From assembly GCA_020632395.1 (NCBI GenBank), contig JACKFQ010000001.1, forward strand, positions 34,864-98,863: a stretch of DNA of 64,000 nucleotides, written 5' to 3'. The translations under genes and the position numbers were made by a program. Below, piece by piece: positions 34,692-44,248 of the stretch. Source of the stretch: Candidatus Nomurabacteria bacterium (GTDB taxonomy: Bacteria > Patescibacteriota > Dojkabacteria > SC72 > JAHDCA01). Numbering within the stretch: the first letter of the stretch is position 1; the number at the start of each line of letters is the position of its first letter. Below the pieces are notes generated by a model. That model saw only the letters and a list, made by a program, of their open reading frames with translations, made no database searches and was not told the DNA's origin.

Positions 34692-35243
34692 ATGAACAAA
34701 CTAATGAATAAGATCGTAATATTTGCAGTAATGATAATCGTTGCTTCCTCAAGCTATGTATATTCGCAAGATGCTGGTGGAGGCGAGAATATCGCACGTC
34801 CTCTTGATGAGGTTGCCCAACCGGCAGATACTGATTCAAAACCTGTGATATATGTACATGAGGATTGCCCTCATTGTCAGGATGTAGAAGATTTTGTCGC
34901 AGCAAATGATCTTGGGGATATGGTCCAATACATGCAACTGAAGGATAATGAAGATAATCTCACAAAGTTGACAGATCTATGGGCAGAATACAATGTACCC
35001 GGTGATGGACCTGCTTGGCCTATAATGTTCTATGTAGACTCCGAAGGTGTCAGTACCTACTCCCTAGGTAGTGATCCAATAATTGAGGTCCTAGCTGAGA
35101 AATTCAATATAGATATTCCTGATGAAGTTGTCACACCAGATCAGAACTCTAACAGTACGCTTATGATCTTTGGAGGTTTGATACTTGCAGCGATCTTTGG
35201 GTTCGGAATTGTTAATATTGCAACTGGTAAAAAGTCTAAGTGA
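34692..35243 (+). CDS. Secreted thioredoxin-fold thiol-disulfide oxidoreductase-like protein with C-terminal TM anchor
   Basis: Signal peptide; CPHC (CxxC) motif; hydrophobic C-terminal helix. Confidence 0.6.
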   Translation: MNKLMNKIVIFAVMIIVASSSYVYSQDAGGGENIARPLDEVAQPADTDSKPVIYVHEDCPHCQDVEDFVAANDLGDMVQYMQLKDNEDNLTKLTDLWAEYNVPGDGPAWPIMFYVDSEGVSTYSLGSDPIIEVLAEKFNIDIPDEVVTPDQNSNSTLMIFGGLILAAIFGFGIVNIATGKKSK

Positions 35244-36058
35244 AGAACGTTTCTACGTCAGAAACAAGGTTTCCAATAGGGGCAGGTGTGCACTATCCTG
35301 TTTCTGGATCGGAGCTGATCGAAAAGGTCGATGACCTCAAAGGATCGATCGATGTCAAGGTCATAGGCCGTATCAGAGCAATGTTTGTACCATCAATATC
35401 CTATGAGTATTCATTGAAGTTACTTCTGTGTGCGTATCTACCAACAGCAAAACATATCGTTGATGAAGCTATCATATTTGCTGATCCTATCATGCATAGA
35501 TCGCACAATGTGGCGTTGCACCCCGCTAGATTTTGGGAATCCCCCCTCGGTAAGATCGAAGTATCTCATCGGGTGGCTCAACTGACTTCCAGTGATGACC
35601 ACTCTGTAGATCTTATCCGATCTGATATCCAACCACATGAAGGTGAGGTTTCTATAGAATTACAAATCCCCCTTTTACAATATCTCTGGGATCAAAGTAT
35701 TCGGATATTACCTTTTATGGTGGGTGATTGTAGCCCTAGGCTACTTTTTGAACAGATAGGTTATAAGATACAGCAAGACGATCTGATAATTGTAGCTTCG
35801 ACGCTTTCTCGCGGTTTACCAGCTGATTATGCTTCTGATATTGATAAGAGTACTTTACAGAGAATACTTGATCTGGATGTTAAGTATTTTGAAACAAATC
35901 CCAATGTCGTATCCTCACCCAATTCATTGTCGTTTCTCCTGGAGTACGCAATAAGAACTGACCTCAAGGCCGTTGTTGTCGGTACTGATTGTGTCAAAAC
36001 GTCCTTTGATCGAGATCGTACAACCGGCCTAGCATCAATTCTATTTGTAGAAAAATAA
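35240..36058 (+). CDS. MEMO1-family (AmmeMemoRadiSam system protein B-like) protein
   Basis: RFPIGAGVHYPVSG (cf. RxPxxAGxFYP). The usual vPHAGY is replaced by VPSISYEY, so possibly a non-canonical member. Confidence 0.55.
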   Translation: MKNVSTSETRFPIGAGVHYPVSGSELIEKVDDLKGSIDVKVIGRIRAMFVPSISYEYSLKLLLCAYLPTAKHIVDEAIIFADPIMHRSHNVALHPARFWESPLGKIEVSHRVAQLTSSDDHSVDLIRSDIQPHEGEVSIELQIPLLQYLWDQSIRILPFMVGDCSPRLLFEQIGYKIQQDDLIIVASTLSRGLPADYASDIDKSTLQRILDLDVKYFETNPNVVSSPNSLSFLLEYAIRTDLKAVVVGTDCVKTSFDRDRTTGLASILFVEK

Positions 36059-36059
36059 A

Positions 36060-36971
36060 ATGATCCGCTCGGTTATTATCTCAACACCAGATCTGAATGA
36101 TCTAGTTGGGTGTGGTGTCTGTCCAAAGGAGTGCAGATTGATAGATGGTGCTATATGTCGTTCAGGAGTCCGCAGAAGAGTAGGTGATAGGGTAGTACAG
36201 CTCAATTACGGTATGTTGTTAAATCTCAGAAAAGGCACGTTACCTATGGGATTCCGAGAAGATGAAGAGGGCCTTTTTGTGTCAATGATAGGAGGCAATC
36301 ATAAGTTGGCATTTGATCCTGACTGGGGATTGTCACAATTCTATCAAGAGAGGTCTCGAGAGATAGGAAAATTTGAGGCTATGAGGTCAGTAGAAACATC
36401 TGGTGATCATTATGCACCAGCAGAACTAGTAGAGTATTCACAGAAGCATGATCTCGAAAAGATCTTTTTTTTTAATGGTGAGCCGGCGGTTAATCTTGAT
36501 TACATCCTTGAATTATCTAGGGTTGCAAGGAGAGCGGGTATCGAAGTGTATATAAAGAGTAGGGGAACTATACCCGAACAGTATTGGTATGCCCTTACTT
36601 CTGACTTATCAGGAGTATCTCTACACCTTGATTCTCTGGACAATTCGTACAATCAGAAGTATTTCAATATTATAACGGATCATATCCTAGAACTGCTTAA
36701 ATATTTATCAAAGCCTCATAAACTTCGTTCAATATATACAACAATCATCCCAGATGTGAATGACAGAGCACGCTCTCTAGATAGGATGGTAGACATTTTC
36801 AACCATGAGATCGATCAAAATGTTGATTGGATAGTGCGATCATTCACTCCGGATCATAAGATGTGGGATCGTAGATCGATCCCGGATGAGGATCTATCAG
36901 AGATCATTAATTATCTAACAAAAATATGCAGGATGAATATAATAGCTGATACTGGTAAAATAGATAGATAA
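36060..36971 (+). CDS. Radical-SAM-like protein with a non-canonical Cys motif
   Basis: FFFNGEPAV...YIKSRG resembles the GGEP / TNG elements of PFL-AE-like radical SAM enzymes, but CX3CX2C is absent. An N-terminal CGVCPKEC-x7-C cluster is present instead. Confidence 0.4.
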   Translation: MIRSVIISTPDLNDLVGCGVCPKECRLIDGAICRSGVRRRVGDRVVQLNYGMLLNLRKGTLPMGFREDEEGLFVSMIGGNHKLAFDPDWGLSQFYQERSREIGKFEAMRSVETSGDHYAPAELVEYSQKHDLEKIFFFNGEPAVNLDYILELSRVARRAGIEVYIKSRGTIPEQYWYALTSDLSGVSLHLDSLDNSYNQKYFNIITDHILELLKYLSKPHKLRSIYTTIIPDVNDRARSLDRMVDIFNHEIDQNVDWIVRSFTPDHKMWDRRSIPDEDLSEIINYLTKICRMNIIADTGKIDR

Positions 36972-37877: not shown

Positions 37878-38789
37878 CTACTTCGTATCCAATCTGCTAT
37901 TCATATCTGAAAGCAGATCTCGTGTGATCTGTAGAATTCCGTAAGAAGGCCTATCAGTAGTGTTGTTTTGTAGTGTCGCTTCTTCTCTTAATCCGTTCAG
38001 CCAAGCACCTGAAAGCTCGTTGAACTTCTGTTTGGTGTATGCTTCTGCAACAGTATCCTTCACATCTTCATAAACTGCATCTTCACCGAAATAGGTATCC
38101 TTGAATTCTTCAAAAAAGGCTAGCAGATCTTCTTCAGTTGGTTCAGGTACAACCATAGCTTCAGCTAAAAGTTGGATCTTTAAGTTCCTTCTATATGTTT
38201 CCAGGGTCAGACCATTTGCTTCAAGTGCGGCATTTAGTTCCTCCTCACCGCCAACCTCTTCTTTTGTCTGAGCTACTGCGGTATCGACATCTTCATCGGA
38301 AACAGTGACATCCTCTTTCACAGCTTCCTGCTTGATCAACTCCTCATTCATCATCTGTGTAGCGATAACATTTCCATAAGCATCCTCGAGTCTGACAAGA
38401 TACTCACTCCTAGGGATGCGAGATCCATTCACTATAGCAATACTGTAATCGTTATTGATGTACTGGACAACAAAATCTATGACGATCAGTGTCGCAATAA
38501 CTACTAGAACCCAAGTGACAAATTTCAACATCCTTGGTTTGATAGAGATCGTTCCGGGCTTTTTAGCTTTGGTTTCAGCTTCGGATACTGGTGTGATTTT
38601 TTTGACAACCTTAGCAGGAGTGCTCTCTTTAACTTTCGAAACTTTTTCAGATCGAGAAACAGTATCTGAATTTTTTGCTCTATCAGAAGCAACAACCTTC
38701 TTTGATCGCTCTTCTGACCTCTTCTTTGACTGGGCTTTTTTATTTGATCTTGCCATTAAAAAATACTCAATAAAATTATGGCTGGTCAT
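37878..38789 (-). CDS. Membrane-anchored SurA-N/PpiD-like chaperone-domain protein with a Lys-rich N-terminal tail
   Basis: K/S/R-rich 90-aa N-terminus, one TM, then an acidic helical domain resembling the SurA N-terminal chaperone module. No PPIase motif seen. Confidence 0.45.
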   Translation of the reverse strand: MTSHNFIEYFLMARSNKKAQSKKRSEERSKKVVASDRAKNSDTVSRSEKVSKVKESTPAKVVKKITPVSEAETKAKKPGTISIKPRMLKFVTWVLVVIATLIVIDFVVQYINNDYSIAIVNGSRIPRSEYLVRLEDAYGNVIATQMMNEELIKQEAVKEDVTVSDEDVDTAVAQTKEEVGGEEELNAALEANGLTLETYRRNLKIQLLAEAMVVPEPTEEDLLAFFEEFKDTYFGEDAVYEDVKDTVAEAYTKQKFNELSGAWLNGLREEATLQNNTTDRPSYGILQITRDLLSDMNSRLDTK

Positions 38790-38849
38790 TAGTGTATCAG
38801 AATAGGAAGATAGAATAAAGTAATAGGATTAAGTCATCGGGTAGATAAT

Positions 38850-40030
38850 GCACACCTGTTTAAAGTTGATGTGATTGAAAAATGGGGCCAAGTGAGACAA
38901 AATGATAATGATCTAAACTATCAATGTCTCAAACATGACCCCAATAGTATCATACAAAGAATTCATAAAAAACGCACGAAACAAAAAGCAGGCAAGAGAA
39001 TTCCTAAAGGCACATATATTAAGAACGGGAGGAAATATATCCCAATCAGCTCATACCTTGAAATGCTCATGGAGGACGATTAAAAAATTGTTGGAAGCAG
39101 ATGATTTGGACTATGAATCAAAAAAAGCTCCAAAAACTATTCCGCACAAAATACCACAATCAACAGAAGAATTGATAGAAGAGTATCACAAGGAGTCTGG
39201 ATACGGTCCTGATATGTTGAAGTTAAATTACAAAATACCTCACTCAACTAGTACAATATGGAGAGTCCTTTCTGAAAAAGGATTAATTCGGCAGGGTGAA
39301 AGAACATATGTTAAAAAGAAAAAGAATTCTCATATTAAGTGGAAACTTAAAGCGTTTGAGAAATGGCAACTTGATACAAAATATCTTGACGATATCCCAA
39401 ATCTGATCGGCCCAATACAACAAGGTTTCCTACCAAGGTACGAGTACACTTTAAGAGATATGACTACTGGAACAACATTCTTAGGATATGGTTTAAAGGA
39501 GAGATCTGTATATTGTACTTGCTCTTTTGTAGCATTGGCTATGTACCATATGCAGTTACATGGAATCGATACTCACTATGTAACGATACAATCTGATAAT
39601 GGTCCTGAGATTATTGGTGGGATAAATAAGTCTGGAAATTACAGTATTGAAGATATCGTTGAGGGACAGTTTGGGGCAAGATTTAAGACAATACCTATTA
39701 GAAAACCTACTTTTAATTCCCATGTGGAGAGTTTCCATGGGAGAATAGAGTATGAACTTTATGAAAGAATGAATATCTGTTCGGATACTAATTTCGTAAA
39801 GGAGGCTAGGGATTTTGAATTACACTGGAATACAAGAAGGAAAACTTTGGGAAGGAAGAAGACTCCTGAATGTATAGCAAGAGAAAGTGGGTTTCTTCTT
39901 TCTGAGTGCTTTTACAATTTCCCTGTGTTAATATTTGATATCATTCCTCACAAGGAATCTATGCATTATCTACCCGATGACCTCATAGGATATATTTTTT
40001 CCTGATACCGTTTATTTGACGGAGATCATC
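38850..40030 (+). mobile_element. Insertion sequence with a single-ORF DDE transposase, IS481/IS3-like (boundaries approximate)
   Basis: Transposase ORF plus about 80 bp 5' and about 25 bp 3' flanks. Ends start TGT.../...ACA with weak imperfect inverted repeats. The right end overlaps the last codons of the adjacent M23 gene. Confidence 0.5.
38935..40005 (+). CDS. DDE (rve-type) transposase with N-terminal HTH
   Basis: HTH region (GGNISQSAHTLKCSWRTIKKLLE). Catalytic triad candidates WQLDTKY, IQSDNGPE and SHVESFHGRIE. Confidence 0.8.
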   Translation: MTPIVSYKEFIKNARNKKQAREFLKAHILRTGGNISQSAHTLKCSWRTIKKLLEADDLDYESKKAPKTIPHKIPQSTEELIEEYHKESGYGPDMLKLNYKIPHSTSTIWRVLSEKGLIRQGERTYVKKKKNSHIKWKLKAFEKWQLDTKYLDDIPNLIGPIQQGFLPRYEYTLRDMTTGTTFLGYGLKERSVYCTCSFVALAMYHMQLHGIDTHYVTIQSDNGPEIIGGINKSGNYSIEDIVEGQFGARFKTIPIRKPTFNSHVESFHGRIEYELYERMNICSDTNFVKEARDFELHWNTRRKTLGRKKTPECIARESGFLLSECFYNFPVLIFDIIPHKESMHYLPDDLIGYIFS

Positions 40031-41381
40031 TCAAGTGCAAATACATTGAGGTTTCTCCATTACCATGATCAACTAGCACATATTTACCACCACAAGCATC
40101 AGTGAGGACTTTAGTCACAAAACCATCTTTGATAGCACGAATTGGAGCGCCTGTCCCTCTTGTCGGTATTGGTAAAGATTCACGATATAAACCATAACAG
40201 CTGATAGGAGGTACTGTGATCCAACTTCCCGGTTGCTCACCACTAGTGTGACTGACAAAATCGACAGCATAGTATGATCCAATGTACTCATGAGGGAATT
40301 GCGAAACGTATCCACCATCAACAGGTACTTCACAGTTGATACTACTGGCATAAGTTCCATACGATATATGAAGACAGTTAATGTTTGGATTTGTCACAAC
40401 TCCATTGACTCGATATTCGAAATGAAGATGTGAGCCGTAAGAGAATCCGGTGAATCCCTGAAATCCAAGTATATCTCCTTTTTCTACAGGGGTATTTGCC
40501 TCTATAGTACCACTTCTAAATAGCTCGAAGATGAGTTGAGTGATCTGTTGGGTCGCTTGATTGGCTGCGGCCTCAAGTTCATCGTAACGAGTGCGATATT
40601 CATCTTCCCTGCGCTGACTTTCTGAGAGAAGAGCCTGATATGAACTTTTTTGGGATGCAAGCTCCTCCTTCTCATCAAATAGGTCAGCTCTGTCTCCTTC
40701 TGCTTCAAGCTGAACCTTCTTTACCTCTTCCTTCTTTTCCTGTAGTTTTGCCTGTTCTGATTCTAAGAAAGATATCTGCTCTCCCATACTCCCTAATAGC
40801 TCTGCATCTTTTTCCTTAAGATCTTTGAGATATTGGATCCTTCTAAGAAGATTGTCTAACTCGTTTGAATTCAAGAATAGCTCGAAAGTAGATATTGAAC
40901 TGTATTTATACGACATATTGATTCGCTTCTTGATCTTTGCTTTTATTAGTTCGATCTCTTGTGCAATGGTATCCAGTGAGGTTTGTTTTGATTCGATATC
41001 TCTATTGAGTATCCTTATTTCGGTAGCTTTCTGCTCAAGTTGAACTTCAAGCTCCTCGATCGTTTTCTCACGTGCTGCTATTTGCGAATATGTGTAGCTG
41101 ATCTTTTGATACAGATCAAGCTGTTCGTACTCTTCTTGTGAGATCTGAGAGTCTAGTTTCTGTTTCTCATCCGATAACTGTTTTGCTAGATCTTGCAGGT
41201 AGTCTAGACATTCATAATCATCCATATAATCAGGACAAGTAGCATCCACAGCTTCCACAGGCTTTACTAGATCACTCTCAGAACTGTAGAGTATATGAAA
41301 GAAGCCTATTGCTAAAAGGGGAAGCGCGAGAAACCCAGATATTCTTCTTAATTGAGGGAATTTCATCAGTTTGAAGATCAT
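40026..41381 (-). CDS. EnvC-like coiled-coil M23 (LytM) peptidase, 3' end apparently supplied by the IS end
   Basis: Signal/TM; about 250-aa coiled coil; HLHFE motif (GFTGFSYGSHLHFEY) precedes the HxxxD motif (VLVDHGNGETSMYLHL). The ORF stops immediately after YLHL, inside the predicted IS terminus. Confidence 0.7.
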   Translation of the reverse strand: MIFKLMKFPQLRRISGFLALPLLAIGFFHILYSSESDLVKPVEAVDATCPDYMDDYECLDYLQDLAKQLSDEKQKLDSQISQEEYEQLDLYQKISYTYSQIAAREKTIEELEVQLEQKATEIRILNRDIESKQTSLDTIAQEIELIKAKIKKRINMSYKYSSISTFELFLNSNELDNLLRRIQYLKDLKEKDAELLGSMGEQISFLESEQAKLQEKKEEVKKVQLEAEGDRADLFDEKEELASQKSSYQALLSESQRREDEYRTRYDELEAAANQATQQITQLIFELFRSGTIEANTPVEKGDILGFQGFTGFSYGSHLHFEYRVNGVVTNPNINCLHISYGTYASSINCEVPVDGGYVSQFPHEYIGSYYAVDFVSHTSGEQPGSWITVPPISCYGLYRESLPIPTRGTGAPIRAIKDGFVTKVLTDACGGKYVLVDHGNGETSMYLHLR

Positions 41382-42307
41382 CTACTCTTCAAATTTAGAT
41401 TTTTCATAACTGCAAATGAACTACTTGCAAAGCCTACCAAAGCTCCAACAATTCCATGTACACCAAAGAACAGTATTACAAATTTCAGATCAAATGATCG
41501 AAGATAATTCAGGTCTAACTCTGTGGCCAATTGTGTCAGGATGAACTTGATATTTGAATCAGAACTACTACCGACTAGAAGATACCATGGGATAATGATC
41601 AAACCTGCTGCTATAAGCGAACCGACAGTAGTATACACAACCCCTTCGAGTATATATGGCAATTTGATATACGAATCATTACTTCCCACTAGGTGCATGA
41701 TCTCGATCTCCTTATGGTGGGCATTTATGTTGAATGCGATAGTGATGAAAACTAGAGAAAGTGTAATTACTGAGAATATTGAGATGATGCCTATCGCACC
41801 ATATCTGATAGCATTAGATATAGATCTGAGCTGTTTGACTACATCTTCATGATATACAACCTCTTCAATGTAAGGGTTTGTCCTTTGTTCTTCCTTAACC
41901 TGATCGGTGATGTACTCTAGATCGGTCAATGAAGATGCTCGTACCTCTAGACTGGCAGGTAGCCAGTCTGCAGACACGGAATCAATCAATTCGGGGTCAT
42001 CGGAATAGTAGTCAAGATACAATGCAAGAGCTTCTTCTTGTGTGATATATGTGACCTCCTCTATTCCATTTAGTTTTTCGAGTTTATCTCTAACGCTTGA
42101 AATCTGAGATTCAGGTGTATCAACTTCGAAATAGATCTGTAACTGGGCTTTGGTTTCAGAGATCCTTACTGCTTGTTGTGCCATGAATGAAACTGCGATG
42201 AAGAATGATGCAGTAGCAAAAACTATCGTTGCTACGAGGATAGTGGCAATTGAGAGCCACCTGTTCCTCAAAATGTTCTTTCCAGTATTTGCAATTATCC
42301 CTGACAT
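41378..42307 (-). CDS. ftsX: Cell division permease FtsX
   Basis: N-terminal TM, periplasmic domain, three C-terminal TM helices. Immediately downstream of ftsE with overlapping stop/start. Confidence 0.85.
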   Translation of the reverse strand: MSGIIANTGKNILRNRWLSIATILVATIVFATASFFIAVSFMAQQAVRISETKAQLQIYFEVDTPESQISSVRDKLEKLNGIEEVTYITQEEALALYLDYYSDDPELIDSVSADWLPASLEVRASSLTDLEYITDQVKEEQRTNPYIEEVVYHEDVVKQLRSISNAIRYGAIGIISIFSVITLSLVFITIAFNINAHHKEIEIMHLVGSNDSYIKLPYILEGVVYTTVGSLIAAGLIIIPWYLLVGSSSDSNIKFILTQLATELDLNYLRSFDLKFVILFFGVHGIVGALVGFASSSFAVMKNLNLKSR

Positions 42308-42312
42308 GATGA

Positions 42313-43131
42313 TCAGCTCTCCTTTGTACTTTTAATTTTAGTATCTTTTTTGCTCACAGATCTTTTTGAGATCTCTTTTTTGTTTTGAATTGCTTCCTTA
42401 TCCTTTTCTATCATTATCGTAAGCCCCTTTTTGTTTTTGGTATTTCCGTTCTCATATTTACTCTTTTTGGCATCTTCAACTATTTTTCCATCTTCCATTC
42501 TGATCACTCTCGTATTCATAGCATCCACGATCTTAGTATCATGGCTTACTACCATTACTGTAGTACCCCATGAATTGATCATTTTCAATAGCTCTAGGAT
42601 CTCGAGTGAGGTGTTTGGATCGAGGTTTCCGGTGGGCTCATCAGCAATAAAGAGTTTTGGATTATTTGCTAATGCTCTGGCTATAGCTGTTCTTTGCATT
42701 TCGCCTCCAGAAAGTTCCTCAGGGAATAACTTCGCTCTTTTATCTAGTCCTACAAGTTTTAATAGATACCAGCTTGTTTCAATTATCTCGGCTTTTGGTT
42801 TACGAGCGATCTCAAGAACAAATTGCACATTCTCTTCGACTGTTTTACTTGGGATGAGTTTAAGATCCTGAAAGACAACTCCGAGTTGTTGTCGATATAG
42901 CGAAAGCATTTTTCTAGGGATTCTTGTCACATCTATATCTTCAAACAGGATATTGCCTTCTGTTGGGAATTCCTCACGGATAAGTAATCGTATAAGTGTA
43001 GATTTTCCGGCACCACTTGGACCAACGACAAAGAAAAATTCTCCATCTTCCGCCTTGAATTCGACATCTTCTATTGCAACGATATCGTTCTTATACTTTT
43101 TAGTCACTTTGTTGAAATGTATCATGCTCAA
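42313..43131 (-). CDS. ftsE: Cell division ABC ATPase FtsE
   Basis: Walker A GPSGAGKST, signature LSGGEMQR, Walker B IADEPTGNLD; Lys-rich C-terminal tail. Confidence 0.9.
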   Translation of the reverse strand: MSMIHFNKVTKKYKNDIVAIEDVEFKAEDGEFFFVVGPSGAGKSTLIRLLIREEFPTEGNILFEDIDVTRIPRKMLSLYRQQLGVVFQDLKLIPSKTVEENVQFVLEIARKPKAEIIETSWYLLKLVGLDKRAKLFPEELSGGEMQRTAIARALANNPKLFIADEPTGNLDPNTSLEILELLKMINSWGTTVMVVSHDTKIVDAMNTRVIRMEDGKIVEDAKKSKYENGNTKNKKGLTIMIEKDKEAIQNKKEISKRSVSKKDTKIKSTKES

Positions 43132-43168: not shown

Positions 43169-44248
43169 TTATCCGATTCTGATTTCTGCTTCAATGAATT
43201 CATTAAGATCTCCGTCAAGAACATTGTCCGGATCAGTACGCTCAACACCAGTGCGAAGATCTTTTACTAATTTGTATGGATGTAATACATAATTTCTTAT
43301 CTGGTTGCCCCAACCCGCTACTTTATGCTCTCCCTTGATCTTGTTTATTTCATTTTCTCTTTTTTCTTCTTCTAATTGCCACAACTTTGCTTTAAGTATC
43401 ATCATCGCCTTTTCGCGATTTCTCTGTTGACTCCGACTTTCTGAATTATGTACGGTCAAGCCTGTTGGTAAGTGTGTTATCTGAACTGCAGTTGAGGTTT
43501 TATTCACATGCTGACCTCCTGCGCCACCCGATCTTACAGCTTTGAATTCAATGTCCGAATCAGGGATGACGATATCCTCATCGTCATCTATAACTGGGGT
43601 GACCTCCACACCTGCAAATGATGTTTGACGCAGATTTTGAGAATTAAATGGAGATAGTCTGATAAGTCTGTGAGCACCCGCCTCCTTTTTGAGCAAACCA
43701 AAGCAGTAATCTCCAGATACTATCATGGTCACAGTAGATATACCTGCTTCATTCCCTTGTACCATATGCTGGGTCTCAACCGTCCAACCCTGTCTCTCAA
43801 AATATCGCAGATACATCCTATAAAGCATTTCTGCCCAATCATTGGCCTCTGTTCCTCCTTGACCTGAGTGGATCGAGATGATCGCATCAGCAGTGTCATA
43901 TTTACCTGATAAATACTTGAAGGTTTGAAAGCTTTCTACATCATTTTTTAATGAATCGTATTCGATCTGTAGCATATCTAAGTCACTTTCTCCTGACATC
44001 TCGTATAGCTCCAGCAAACTTTCACCTCGTTTTTCGAGTGATCTGATCGTCTCTACCTCCTTACGGAGATGTTCGAGCTCACGCATGATCTTTCGAGCTT
44101 TTTCTTGCTCGTTCCAGAAACCATCTTCCATGCTTAAAGTTTCTAGTTCACCTATCCTTGATATCTTGGTATCAACGTTCATATCAAGTTTGGTATCGTC
44201 GATCTGCTTATTGATTTCTGTAAGTAAGTCTTTGCTTATTTGTTCCAT
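43169..44248 (-). CDS. prfB: Peptide chain release factor 2
   Basis: SPF motif (LSPFNS), GGQ motif (GGAGGQHVNKT). Contiguous ORF with no +1 frameshift site. Confidence 0.9.
   Translation of the reverse strand: MEQISKDLLTEINKQIDDTKLDMNVDTKISRIGELETLSMEDGFWNEQEKARKIMRELEHLRKEVETIRSLEKRGESLLELYEMSGESDLDMLQIEYDSLKNDVESFQTFKYLSGKYDTADAIISIHSGQGGTEANDWAEMLYRMYLRYFERQGWTVETQHMVQGNEAGISTVTMIVSGDYCFGLLKKEAGAHRLIRLSPFNSQNLRQTSFAGVEVTPVIDDDEDIVIPDSDIEFKAVRSGGAGGQHVNKTSTAVQITHLPTGLTVHNSESRSQQRNREKAMMILKAKLWQLEEEKRENEINKIKGEHKVAGWGNQIRNYVLHPYKLVKDLRTGVERTDPDNVLDGDLNEFIEAEIRIG

What the first reader, a model, noticed from the sequence alone, without database searches (positions are those of the whole stretch)
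38850..41381. IS insertion abutting an EnvC-like M23 gene whose catalytic motifs are permuted and whose stop lies in the IS terminus
A single-ORF DDE transposase element, the only obvious mobile element in the window, sits between a SurA-like gene and the ftsE-ftsX-M23 operon. The M23 ORF ends ...VLVDHGNGETSMYLHLR*, exactly after the conserved YxHL motif, with its last codons and stop inside the predicted IS end. The HLHFE motif, normally C-terminal, instead lies about 95 aa upstream of the HxxxD motif. This is either a genuine circularly permuted LytM domain or a rearranged and truncated EnvC created by IS activity. EnvC activates amidases under FtsEX control, so truncation could affect cell separation.
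Basis: partly seen in the sequence, partly recalled or inferred. Interest (0 to 1): 0.55.

Follow-up and report, generated by a model that had tools for sequence, protein, structure and literature searches.

The report
Naturally circularly permuted M23 cell-division hydrolase
The cell-wall-cutting gene next to ftsEX is intact: its swapped motif order is an inherited circular permutation of the M23/LytM domain shared by many ultra-small (Patescibacteria) bacteria, and the nearby insertion sequence landed 41 bases downstream without touching it.

Summary
The 451-aa ORF (40026-41381, minus strand) has a membrane anchor, a long coiled coil and an M23/LytM domain. The canonical C-terminal half (GSHLHFE) comes first and the canonical N-terminal half (Asp strand, then YLHLR*) comes last.

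- **Permutation:** solved M23 proteins align to the two halves in the opposite order. Rejoining the halves in silico restores one continuous Pfam match.
- **Conservation:** 48 of 50 complete orthologues end at the same Y-x-H-[LI]-x terminus. They come from a scan of one genome per species; the titles that name a lineage say mostly Dojkabacteria. ftsX lies upstream and none has a transposase nearby. More distant permuted relatives also follow ftsE-ftsX.
- **Active site:** the HxH histidines, the Asp and the YxH histidine are essentially invariant across 167 permuted sequences. An active, FtsEX-controlled endopeptidase is likely.
- **IS:** it is a 1155-bp IS481-like element (38830-39984) with 23-bp terminal repeats and a 7-bp target duplication. 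It ends 41 nt short of the M23 stop codon. It is the transposase ORF that runs out of the IS, not the M23 ORF that runs in.

I found no published description of a permuted M23 domain.

The parts
40026..41381 (-). Complete 451-aa gene for the FtsEX-associated protein: membrane anchor, coiled coil and circularly permuted M23/LytM domain. Its start overlaps the ftsX stop by 4 nt.
   Evidence: ORF list. Pfam M23 55.8 bits in two stretches. 74 homologues, about 58 of the same length.
41277..41339 (-). N-terminal transmembrane or signal-anchor helix (residues 15-35).
   Evidence: AF2 full-length model, helix 15-35. Hydrophobic sequence GFLALPLLAIGFFHILY.
40515..41219 (-). Long coiled-coil region (residues 55-289: helices 55-86, 90-161 and 175-289).
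   Evidence: AF2. Foldseek top hits are EnvC in FtsEX complexes 8tzl_E and 6tpi_A, then RipA, PcsB and RipC.
40383..40499 (-). Permuted domain, first segment (residues 295-333). It equals the C-terminal half of a canonical M23 domain (V-x-K-G-D-I-L-G ... G-S-H318-L-H320-F-E ... N-P).
   Evidence: Aligns to 3slu 301-339, which lies after the segment matched by the query's C-terminus. Pfam profile positions 54-96. H318 and H320 are invariant in 167 sequences.
40032..40325 (-). Permuted domain, second segment (residues 353-450). It equals the N-terminal half of a canonical M23 domain: P353, Q361, H364, Y370 (in place of the HxxxD histidine), D374, a clade-specific insert 378-408 with C395, G-A-P-I-R-A, and Y447-L-H449-L.
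   Evidence: Residues 410-450 align to 3slu 255-295. Pfam profile positions 12-52. Alignments A1 and A3. Conservation counts.
38830..39984 (.). IS481-like insertion sequence, 1155 bp.
   Evidence: Inverted repeats. Target duplication read. Transposase-family conservation stops exactly at the codons of the right repeat. A Logan contig seen in 9 samples spans exactly IS -30/+30 nt.
38830..38852 (+). Left terminal inverted repeat (TAA plus perfect 20-mer GTCATCGGGTAGATAATGCA).
   Evidence: 2 matches in the window, 0 expected.
39962..39984 (-). Right terminal inverted repeat (perfect 20-mer plus CTC). It encodes ...HYLPDDL of the transposase.
38823..38829 (.). Target-site duplication, left copy (ATAGGAT).
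   Evidence: Sequence. It sits symmetrically, directly outside both IS termini.
39985..39991 (.). Target-site duplication, right copy (ATAGGAT).
   Evidence: Sequence.
38935..40005 (+). Transposase ORF (356 aa). It reads through the right repeat, and its last 6 codons and stop lie 21 nt outside the IS.
   Evidence: NCBIfam IS481 family, E 1.8e-20, profile positions 9-280 of 284, below cutoff. Weak Pfam rve_3 match. 41 homologues whose C-terminal tails vary after HYLPD[DE].
41378..42307 (-). ftsX.
   Evidence: Pfam FtsX_ECD and FtsX.
42313..43131 (-). ftsE (ABC ATPase).
   Evidence: Pfam ABC_tran, 1e-33.
37878..38789 (-). SurA_N-like gene. It is the conserved downstream neighbour of the M23 gene and is now separated from it by the IS.
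   Evidence: Pfam SurA_N_3. Same neighbour in most orthologous loci.

Best explanation
The gene is an intact, vertically inherited partner of the FtsEX cell-division ABC complex. It has a membrane anchor, an EnvC/PcsB-like coiled coil and a peptidase M23 (LytM) domain that is circularly permuted.

The chain enters the domain at the strand that normally follows the Y-x-H-L motif. It runs through the HxH motif, crosses a roughly 20-residue linker that joins the old C- and N-termini, continues through the Asp strand, and ends two residues after the catalytic histidine of Y-x-H-L. The permutation predates the split between the ~165-residue form of the domain that carries a ~30-residue insert (the window protein and its orthologues, mostly labelled Dojkabacteria) and the shorter Patescibacteria forms without it. 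It has nothing to do with the insertion sequence.

Inferred mechanism: FtsE ATP binding moves the FtsX extracellular domains. The movement is passed along the coiled coil and switches on the M23 domain. Because all catalytic residues are kept, that domain probably cuts peptidoglycan cross-links itself rather than activating an amidase. In the window protein the first zinc ligand (the His of HxxxD) is Tyr, and a histidine six residues upstream (H364) probably replaces it.

The IS481-like element inserted into the 74-nt spacer between this gene and the SurA-like gene. It duplicated ATAGGAT and leaves the M23 ORF untouched. Its only plausible effect is on transcription of the downstream SurA-like gene.
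For: Shown:
1. **Swapped colinearity.** Domain residues 126-166 align to 3slu 255-295 and residues 11-49 align to 3slu 301-339. The pattern repeats for 6muk, 5kqb and 6jmx.
2. **De-permutation.** Joining the second half in front of the first turns two Pfam stretches into one (profile positions 12-96, 57.7 to 72.4 bits). Two distant homologues behave the same way.
4. **Orthologues.** Of 50 complete orthologues from a scan of one genome per species (53 loci, 3 cut by contig ends), 48 end within 0-2 residues of Y-x-H-[LI]-x. ftsX lies upstream wherever upstream sequence exists, the SurA-like gene usually lies downstream, and none has a transposase hit.
5. **Closest orthologue.** At 54% identity it shows prfB-ftsE-ftsX-M23-SurA-HPF with a 76-nt spacer, against 74 nt here once the IS and one target-duplication copy are removed.
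6. **Distant relatives.** Permuted relatives at 22-29% identity also sit right after ftsE-ftsX.
7. **Active-site residues.** In 167 permuted sequences H318, H320, Y447 and H449 are 100% conserved and D374 is present in 166 of 167.
8. **Histidine pattern.** Of 60 sequences without His at D-4, 59 have a His earlier in the same loop, against 15 of 107 with it (Fisher p = 1e-29).
9. **Architecture.** The full-length model's best Foldseek hits are EnvC in FtsEX complexes (8tzl_E, 6tpi_A), then RipA, PcsB and RipC.
10. **IS limits.** They rest on the inverted repeats, the target duplication and the end of transposase conservation.

Inferred: enzymatic activity, the relocated zinc ligand and the FtsEX coupling mechanism. 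The last is by analogy with EnvC (PMC7668044).
Against: - I had no access to model coordinates, so I made no permutation-aware 3D superposition. I also could not measure the distance from H364 to the metal site.
- The window protein lacks the canonical first zinc ligand, so a non-catalytic activator role like that of EnvC cannot be excluded.
- No intermediate with a coiled coil and two tandem M23 domains was found among the six multi-stretch hits of 405-551 aa read for that purpose (P0112, P0102, P0149, P0160, P0193, P0095).
- The FtsEX interaction is inferred from gene order and architecture only.
Confidence: 0.88

Rival explanations
1. IS activity rearranged and truncated a canonical EnvC-like gene, producing the odd motif order and a stop codon supplied by the IS terminus.
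For: The IS lies close to the 3' end of the gene, with only 41 nt between them. Two short metagenome contigs carrying the gene break near this point.
Against: The stop codon lies outside the IS and outside the target duplication. Of 50 complete orthologues without any transposase, 48 have the same order and the same terminus. Distant permuted relatives in other Patescibacteria do too. The spacer length minus the IS equals that of the IS-free orthologue.
Confidence: 0.02
2. The permuted domain in this species is a catalytically dead LytM-type activator, as in E. coli EnvC or NlpD, that switches on a separate amidase rather than cutting peptidoglycan itself.
For: The canonical first zinc ligand is Tyr370 in the window protein, and this position is non-His in 60 of 167 family members. 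The EnvC-like architecture and FtsEX linkage also fit.
Against: Degenerate LytM factors lack the catalytic residues needed for peptidoglycan hydrolysis (PMC7668044). Here H318, H320, D374 and H449 are essentially invariant. The lost His is almost always accompanied by a new His in the same loop (p = 1e-29), which suggests selection to keep a metal site. No amidase partner was looked for, since only 64 kb of the genome is available.
Confidence: 0.22
3. The two half-domains are remnants of a decayed tandem M23-M23 gene that no longer fold into one functional domain, so the gene is effectively a pseudogene.
For: Tandem M23-M23 proteins are common and match the permuted profile across their junction. 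At least 59 of the 150 best representatives are of this kind.
Against: The AF2 model is a single compact domain (pTM 0.89). Motifs are strongly conserved over 167 sequences at 22-54% identity. The operon position is conserved.
Confidence: 0.03

Closest known systems
EnvC (E. coli and Vibrio murein hydrolase activator; PDB 6tpi, 8tzl, 4bh5)
   Same: It has a long coiled coil followed by a LytM/M23 domain. It is the best structural match for both the full-length model and the domain. The window gene directly follows ftsE-ftsX, matching EnvC's role as the FtsEX partner.
   Different: The domain is circularly permuted, so the coiled coil joins it at the loop after Y-x-H-L instead of at the canonical N-terminus. 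The catalytic residues are retained, whereas the EnvC LytM domain lacks them (PMC7668044). The protein appears to be anchored by a TM helix. The NCBIfam EnvC model scores 18 bits against a cutoff of 270.
PcsB, CwlO and RipC (FtsEX-controlled hydrolases of Gram-positives and mycobacteria)
   Same: A coiled-coil partner of FtsEX carries an active hydrolase domain that acts directly on peptidoglycan. PcsB, RipA and RipC coiled coils appear among the Foldseek hits.
   Different: According to PMC7668044 PcsB carries a CHAP domain; that CwlO and RipC carry NlpC/P60 cysteine-peptidase domains is from my own knowledge. None has a zinc M23 domain.
Canonical peptidase M23 (LytM, lysostaphin, ShyA, MepM, Csd3; Pfam PF01551)
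   Same: The conserved motifs and probably the chemistry are the same: zinc bound by His, Asp and His, plus two catalytic histidines. The sequence passes the Pfam gathering score.
   Different: The motif order is HxH ... D ... YxH instead of HxxxD ... YxH ... HxH. The first ligand His has moved or been lost in a subclade. The window protein and its orthologues carry an insert of about 30 residues with a conserved Cys after the Asp strand.
Circularly permuted NlpC/P60 families (YaeF/poxvirus G6R and LRAT-like; Anantharaman and Aravind 2003, as cited in PMC6403190)
   Same: This is the precedent for a cell-wall peptidase superfamily in which whole families carry a circularly permuted catalytic domain with swapped catalytic residues.
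   Different: The fold and the chemistry differ (papain-like cysteine peptidase). I found no equivalent report for M23.
IS481 family insertion sequences
   Same: Single DDE transposase ORF, about 1.15 kb, terminal inverted repeats and a short target duplication. The best NCBIfam match covers the whole IS481 profile.
   Different: The score of 73.7 bits is far below the family cutoff of 224. The transposase ORF has no stop codon inside the element and ends in flanking DNA.

Membership tests
Peptidase M23 / LytM domain (Pfam PF01551) | Sequence match above the Pfam gathering score | tested here: met
   55.8 bits against 28.7, but as two stretches. After in-silico de-permutation it becomes 72.4 bits in one stretch.
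Peptidase M23 / LytM domain (Pfam PF01551) | Canonical linear order HxxxD ... YxHL ... HxH | tested here: not met
   The order is HxH (318-320) ... D374 ... YLH449L.
Peptidase M23 / LytM domain (Pfam PF01551) | Zinc ligands (His and Asp of HxxxD, second His of HxH) and the two catalytic histidines present | tested here: inconclusive
   H318, H320, D374 and H449 are present and essentially invariant. The HxxxD histidine is Tyr370, and H364 is a candidate replacement. I could not check the geometry.
Peptidase M23 / LytM domain (Pfam PF01551) | M23 three-dimensional fold | tested here: inconclusive
Circular permutant of a known domain | Two segments align to the parent domain in swapped order, with the parent's termini joined by a linker | tested here: met
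   (3slu, 6muk, 5kqb, 6jmx). for Pfam profile coordinates.
Circular permutant of a known domain | The arrangement is heritable and conserved, not a local rearrangement or assembly artefact | tested here: met
   48 of 50 complete orthologues from a scan of one genome per species, and 167 permuted sequences in all.
EnvC-type FtsEX partner | Gene adjacent to ftsE-ftsX | tested here: met
   The ORF start overlaps the ftsX stop. The arrangement is the same in the orthologues and in three distant relatives.
EnvC-type FtsEX partner | Long coiled-coil region N-terminal to the effector domain, like the EnvC hairpin | tested here: met
   AF2 helices 55-86, 90-161 and 175-289. Foldseek hits to 8tzl_E and 6tpi_A. 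The full-length pTM is only 0.45, so the hairpin packing itself is uncertain.
EnvC-type FtsEX partner | Degenerate LytM domain without catalytic residues that activates AmiA/AmiB | tested here: not met
   The catalytic residues are conserved. Amidase activation cannot be tested with these tools.
EnvC-type FtsEX partner | NCBIfam EnvC model (NF008644) above cutoff | tested here: not met
   18 bits against a cutoff of 270.
EnvC-type FtsEX partner | Physical binding to the FtsX extracellular domain and ATP-dependent activation | not testable with these tools
   Needs biochemistry or a complex structure.
IS481 family | Transposase matches the family model above cutoff | tested here: not met
   NF033577, E 1.8e-20, 73.7 bits against a cutoff of 224, with full-length profile coverage.
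IS481 family | Single ORF, about 1-1.3 kb, terminal inverted repeats and short direct target repeats (family ranges from my own knowledge of ISfinder) | tested here: met
   1155 bp, 23-bp inverted repeats of which 20 bp are perfect, and a 7-bp target duplication.

The most novel reading that the evidence does not exclude
The permutation is adaptive rewiring rather than a neutral curiosity. It moves the attachment point of the FtsEX-driven coiled coil, and the free C-terminus, to the loop next to the catalytic histidine of Y-x-H-L. Mechanical movement of the coiled coil could then gate the active site directly, replacing the 'restraining arm' autoinhibition of EnvC. The zinc-ligand histidine has migrated within its loop in several lineages. 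This would be a new regulatory design for FtsEX-controlled cell-wall cleavage, apparently specific to Patescibacteria.
Probability: 0.3. Interest if true: 0.72.

Novelty: new variant of a known kind. Interest (0 to 1): 0.55.

Why it matters
M23/LytM domains are among the best-studied peptidoglycan hydrolases and regulators. They are also templates for enzybiotics such as lysostaphin. I found no paper in the searchable library that describes a natural circular permutant, and a 2022 family review does not mention one.

- **Structure:** this family shows that the fold tolerates new termini next to the active site.
- **Mechanism:** it provides a natural experiment on how FtsEX transmits force to its hydrolase.
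- **Annotation:** standard annotation and sequential fold searches see only half-domain matches.
- **Taxonomy:** it marks a lineage-specific cell-division feature of Patescibacteria, whose envelope biology is largely unknown.
- **For the scan:** an IS next to an odd-looking gene was a coincidence, not a cause.

Tried and rejected
1. **Empty site.** I searched JGI metagenome contigs for the empty-site junction, and then for the M23 3' end, and found nothing. The organism is absent from that collection, so no empty allele was observed directly.
2. **Exact-protein look-ups.** Look-ups of the SurA-like protein and of the M23 protein gave only IS-filled or broken contigs.
3. **Foldseek on the isolated domain.** There were no significant hits against the PDB. 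I take this as a limit of sequential alignment on a permuted domain with an insert, not as evidence against M23. The afdb50 library was unavailable.
4. **Plasmid search.** A search with the transposase against plasmids found no match.
5. **Evolutionary intermediate.** I looked for a protein with a coiled coil and two tandem M23 domains. The six multi-stretch hits of 405-551 aa I read for this purpose (P0112, P0102, P0149, P0160, P0193, P0095) gave none: five are tandem proteins without a coiled coil, and P0095 is itself a permuted family member.
6. **Longer inverted repeat.** I rejected the 40-nt 'extended' inverted repeat reported by the repeat finder. Only the inner 20-23 nt are convincing, and the outer part is AT-rich chance similarity that contains the target duplication.
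7. **Promoter and terminator scan.** Around the IS it gave no more than the shuffled expectation.
Full report
**What is at the locus.**
All of the following genes lie on the minus strand, in this order:
- prfB, 43169-44248
- ftsE, 42313-43131
- ftsX, 41378-42307
- a 451-aa ORF with Pfam Peptidase_M23, 40026-41381
- a SurA_N-like gene, 37878-38789

Between the last two, on the plus strand, lies a 356-aa ORF (38935-40005). Its best family match is the IS481 transposase model (E 1.8e-20, whole-profile coverage, but 73.7 bits against a cutoff of 224). It also has a weak rve_3 match.

**Limits of the insertion sequence.**
- A perfect 20-bp inverted repeat, GTCATCGGGTAGATAATGCA, occurs at 38833-38852 and 39962-39981. 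It occurs nowhere else in the window, and 0 chance matches are expected.
- Three bases outside each arm, the heptamer ATAGGAT is directly repeated at 38823-38829 and 39985-39991 (read).
- This gives an element of 1155 bp (38830-39984) with a 7-bp target-site duplication.

Three independent observations agree with these limits.
- Among 41 homologous transposases, conservation stops at ...HYLPD[DE][VL], the residues encoded by the right repeat. The C-terminal tails after that point differ in sequence and length. In this IS family the ORF therefore has no internal stop and terminates in flanking DNA. Here it ends 21 nt outside the element.
- A 1215-bp Logan contig recorded in 9 samples spans exactly 38800-40014, which is the IS plus 30 nt on each side. 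That is what a 31-mer assembly graph yields for the 'filled' branch of a presence/absence polymorphism. The value k = 31 for Logan is from my own knowledge. This reading is an inference; I observed no empty allele.
- Removing the IS and one target-duplication copy leaves a 74-nt spacer. The closest IS-free orthologue has 76 nt.

The M23 stop codon (40026-40028) is 41 nt beyond the IS end. The reverse holds for the transposase.

**The motif order is truly permuted.**
- In phmmer alignments against all PDB chains, residues 126-166 of the domain (protein 410-450...GAPIRAIKDG...YLHL) match 3slu 255-295. Residues 11-49 (protein 295-333...VEKGDILGF...GSHLHFE...NP) match 3slu 301-339. The query's C-terminus is therefore what immediately precedes the query's N-terminal segment in a canonical enzyme. 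The same swap appears for 6muk, 5kqb and 6jmx.
- I joined the second half in front of the first in silico. The two Pfam stretches became one stretch covering profile positions 12-96, and the score rose from 57.7 to 72.4 bits. Two distant relatives behaved the same way (53.9 to 64.5 bits and 60.2 to 70.2 bits).
- AlphaFold2 with a 47-sequence alignment predicts one compact domain (pLDDT 93.7, pTM 0.89).
- Foldseek on the isolated domain found nothing significant. The structural support is therefore weaker than the sequence support. I could not make a permutation-aware superposition because model coordinates are not exposed.

**The permutation is inherited, not made by the IS.**
- A search of 5.8 billion proteins found 74 homologues. 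About 58 have the same length and are 27-54% identical.
- All 15 proteins aligned (the window protein and 14 homologues, 22-54% identical) show the order HLHF, then Asp, then YLHL. Thirteen of the 14 homologues also stop right after YLHL; the most distant, P0060, runs 12 residues further.
- A scan of one genome per species returned 53 loci matching most or all of the protein. Their record titles say Candidatus Dojkabacteria, candidate division WS6 or Patescibacteria, or carry the generic label 'uncultured Candidatus Saccharibacteria'.
- Three of the 53 are cut by contig ends. Of the 50 complete genes, 48 end within 0-2 residues of Y-x-H-[LI]-x. ftsX lies directly upstream wherever sequence is available, the SurA-like gene usually lies downstream, and none has a tblastn hit to the transposase.
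- The best IS-free orthologue (54% identity, GCA_964540605.1) shows prfB-ftsE-ftsX-M23-SurA-HPF-Memo, the same synteny as the window.

**The family is wider than the window protein's close orthologues.**
- More distant proteins of 360-435 aa, 22-29% identical, end in YLHVQ, YLHMQ or YAHMQ (or, in P0060, 12 residues beyond YYHLK) and carry a canonical HxGxD after the HxH motif. They also sit immediately after ftsE-ftsX, with prfB close by in two of the three loci inspected.
- One such cluster is labelled Candidatus Howlettbacteria and another 'Patescibacteria group'.
- A profile of the permuted domain searched against 1.84 billion representatives gave 64 proteins at E ≤ 1e-30. About 45 of the best 150 are single-stretch proteins with a coiled coil and a permuted M23 domain.
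- A second protein search added 54 short-form members.
- The form in the window protein differs by an insert of about 30 residues with a conserved Cys after the Asp strand.
- At least 59 of the 150 best profile hits are tandem canonical M23-M23 proteins, which the permuted profile matches across the junction between the two domains. Tandem duplication is the classic route to circular permutation. I read six multi-stretch hits of 405-551 aa for a coiled coil: five are tandem proteins without one, and the sixth (P0095) is itself a permuted family member. No direct intermediate was found.

**Is it an enzyme or an activator?**
- Across 167 aligned permuted sequences, H318 and H320 (HxH), Y447 and H449 (YxH) are 100% conserved, and D374 is present in 166 of 167. 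By my own knowledge of LytM and lysostaphin, these correspond to two of the three zinc ligands and both catalytic histidines.
- The third ligand, the His four residues before the Asp, is present in 107 of 167 sequences. In the window protein it is Tyr370.
- Of the 60 sequences lacking it, 59 have a His earlier in the same loop (H364 in the window, motif Q-F-P-H). Only 15 of the 107 that keep it have such a His (Fisher p = 1.2e-29). Some sequences have both (Q-T-Y-H-S-V-H-P-A-I-D).
- I read this as relocation of the metal ligand under selection to keep a functional site. The protein is then more like an active FtsEX-controlled hydrolase (in function like PcsB, CwlO or RipC) than like E. coli EnvC, whose LytM domain lacks catalytic residues and activates amidases (PMC7668044). 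This step is an inference, and I keep the dead-activator rival at about 0.2.

**Architecture and probable mechanism.**
- The full-length model (pLDDT 80) shows a TM helix (15-35), a conserved C-P...C motif (C49, P50, C58), helices 55-86, 90-161 and 175-289, and then the domain from about residue 297.
- Its best Foldseek hits are EnvC in the Vibrio FtsEX-EnvC complex and E. coli EnvC bound to the FtsX periplasmic domain. RipA, PcsB and RipC follow.
- By analogy with the EnvC mechanism (ATP binding by FtsE, movement of the FtsX domains, conformational change along the coiled coil, release of autoinhibition), I propose the same coupling here.
- There is one structural difference. The coiled coil enters the domain at the loop after Y-x-H-L, and the chain ends two residues after the catalytic H449. 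Both the connection to the regulator and the free C-terminus therefore sit beside the active site. Whether this changes the gating mechanism is the most novel reading that remains open.

**Consequences of the IS.**
The M23 ORF is intact. The element separates the SurA-like gene from the upstream gene string and points the opposite way, so any effect would be on transcription of that gene. The promoter and terminator scan was uninformative. The same filled locus occurs in several sequencing runs.

**Novelty.**
- Full-text searches returned no paper describing a permuted M23 domain. They combined 'circular permutation', 'circularly permuted' or 'permut' with M23, LytM, peptidase M23, LytM domain or lysostaphin. 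The few co-occurrences concern NlpC/P60 or unrelated topics.
- The 2022 M23 family review contains no 'permut'.
- Nothing links Dojkabacteria with FtsX. A broader search on FtsEX, EnvC, Patescibacteria and 'candidate phyla radiation' returned nothing on a permuted domain.
- No NCBIfam model reached its curated cutoff for this protein. PGAP calls one member a generic 'peptidoglycan DD-metalloendopeptidase family protein'.
- I rate it a new variant of a known kind. The library does not cover most subscription-journal papers, so an earlier description cannot be excluded.

Noticed in passing
window 39962-40005, and homologues P0347-P0379: In this IS family the transposase ORF has no stop codon inside the element. 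Conservation ends at HYLPD[DE][VL], which is encoded by the right inverted repeat, and each copy has a different C-terminal tail read from flanking DNA (0 to about 30 residues).
   Followed up: partly
window 38800-40014 (Logan contigs L090-L092): A contig seen in 9 samples spans exactly the IS plus 30 nt on each side. This fits a 31-mer graph bubble and so a population polymorphic for the insertion. No empty-site sequence was recovered.
   Followed up: partly
window 38935-40005: The identical transposase is deposited at NCBI as a hypothetical protein, H6763_00345, of 'Candidatus Nomurabacteria bacterium'. The neighbouring M23 gene's full-length orthologues, where the record title names a lineage, are mostly labelled Dojkabacteria or WS6. 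The taxonomic label of the source MAG may be imprecise.
   Followed up: no
window 40104-40196 (protein residues 378-408): An insert of about 30 residues with a conserved Cys (C395) follows the Asp strand in the window protein and its orthologues, and a conserved Cys occurs in T-D-x-C-G-G (C430). The pair is a possible disulfide staple. The insert is absent from short-form permuted relatives.
   Followed up: partly
window 41208-41237 (protein residues 49-58): C49 and P50 are invariant and C58 nearly invariant, forming a C-P-x7-C motif just outside the membrane anchor in the window protein's orthologues. Its function is unknown.
   Followed up: no
window 42313-42470: FtsE (272 aa) carries a Lys-rich C-terminal extension of about 50 residues (…KKSKYENGNTKNKKG…SKKDTKIKSTKES). 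By my recollection canonical FtsE proteins are about 220-230 aa.
   Followed up: no
window 43169-44248: prfB (RF2) is one uninterrupted 359-aa ORF, apparently without the programmed +1 frameshift site found in many bacteria.
   Followed up: no
window 35240-36971: Adjacent Memo-like (35240-36058) and radical SAM (36060-36971) genes resemble part of an AmmeMemoRadiSam system, by Pfam labels on the identical contig.
   Followed up: no
loci L030 and L044: Two orthologues deviate at the C-terminus. L030 has a 12-residue Cys-rich extension, and L044 is cut short after ...GEGAP, which may be a frameshift or an assembly error.
   Followed up: no
proteins P0087, P0113, P0117, P0121, P0126, P0139, P0077: Proteins with 2-4 tandem canonical M23 domains are abundant in the representative library and match the permuted profile across domain junctions. 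They show that the raw material for permutation by duplication exists.
   Followed up: partly
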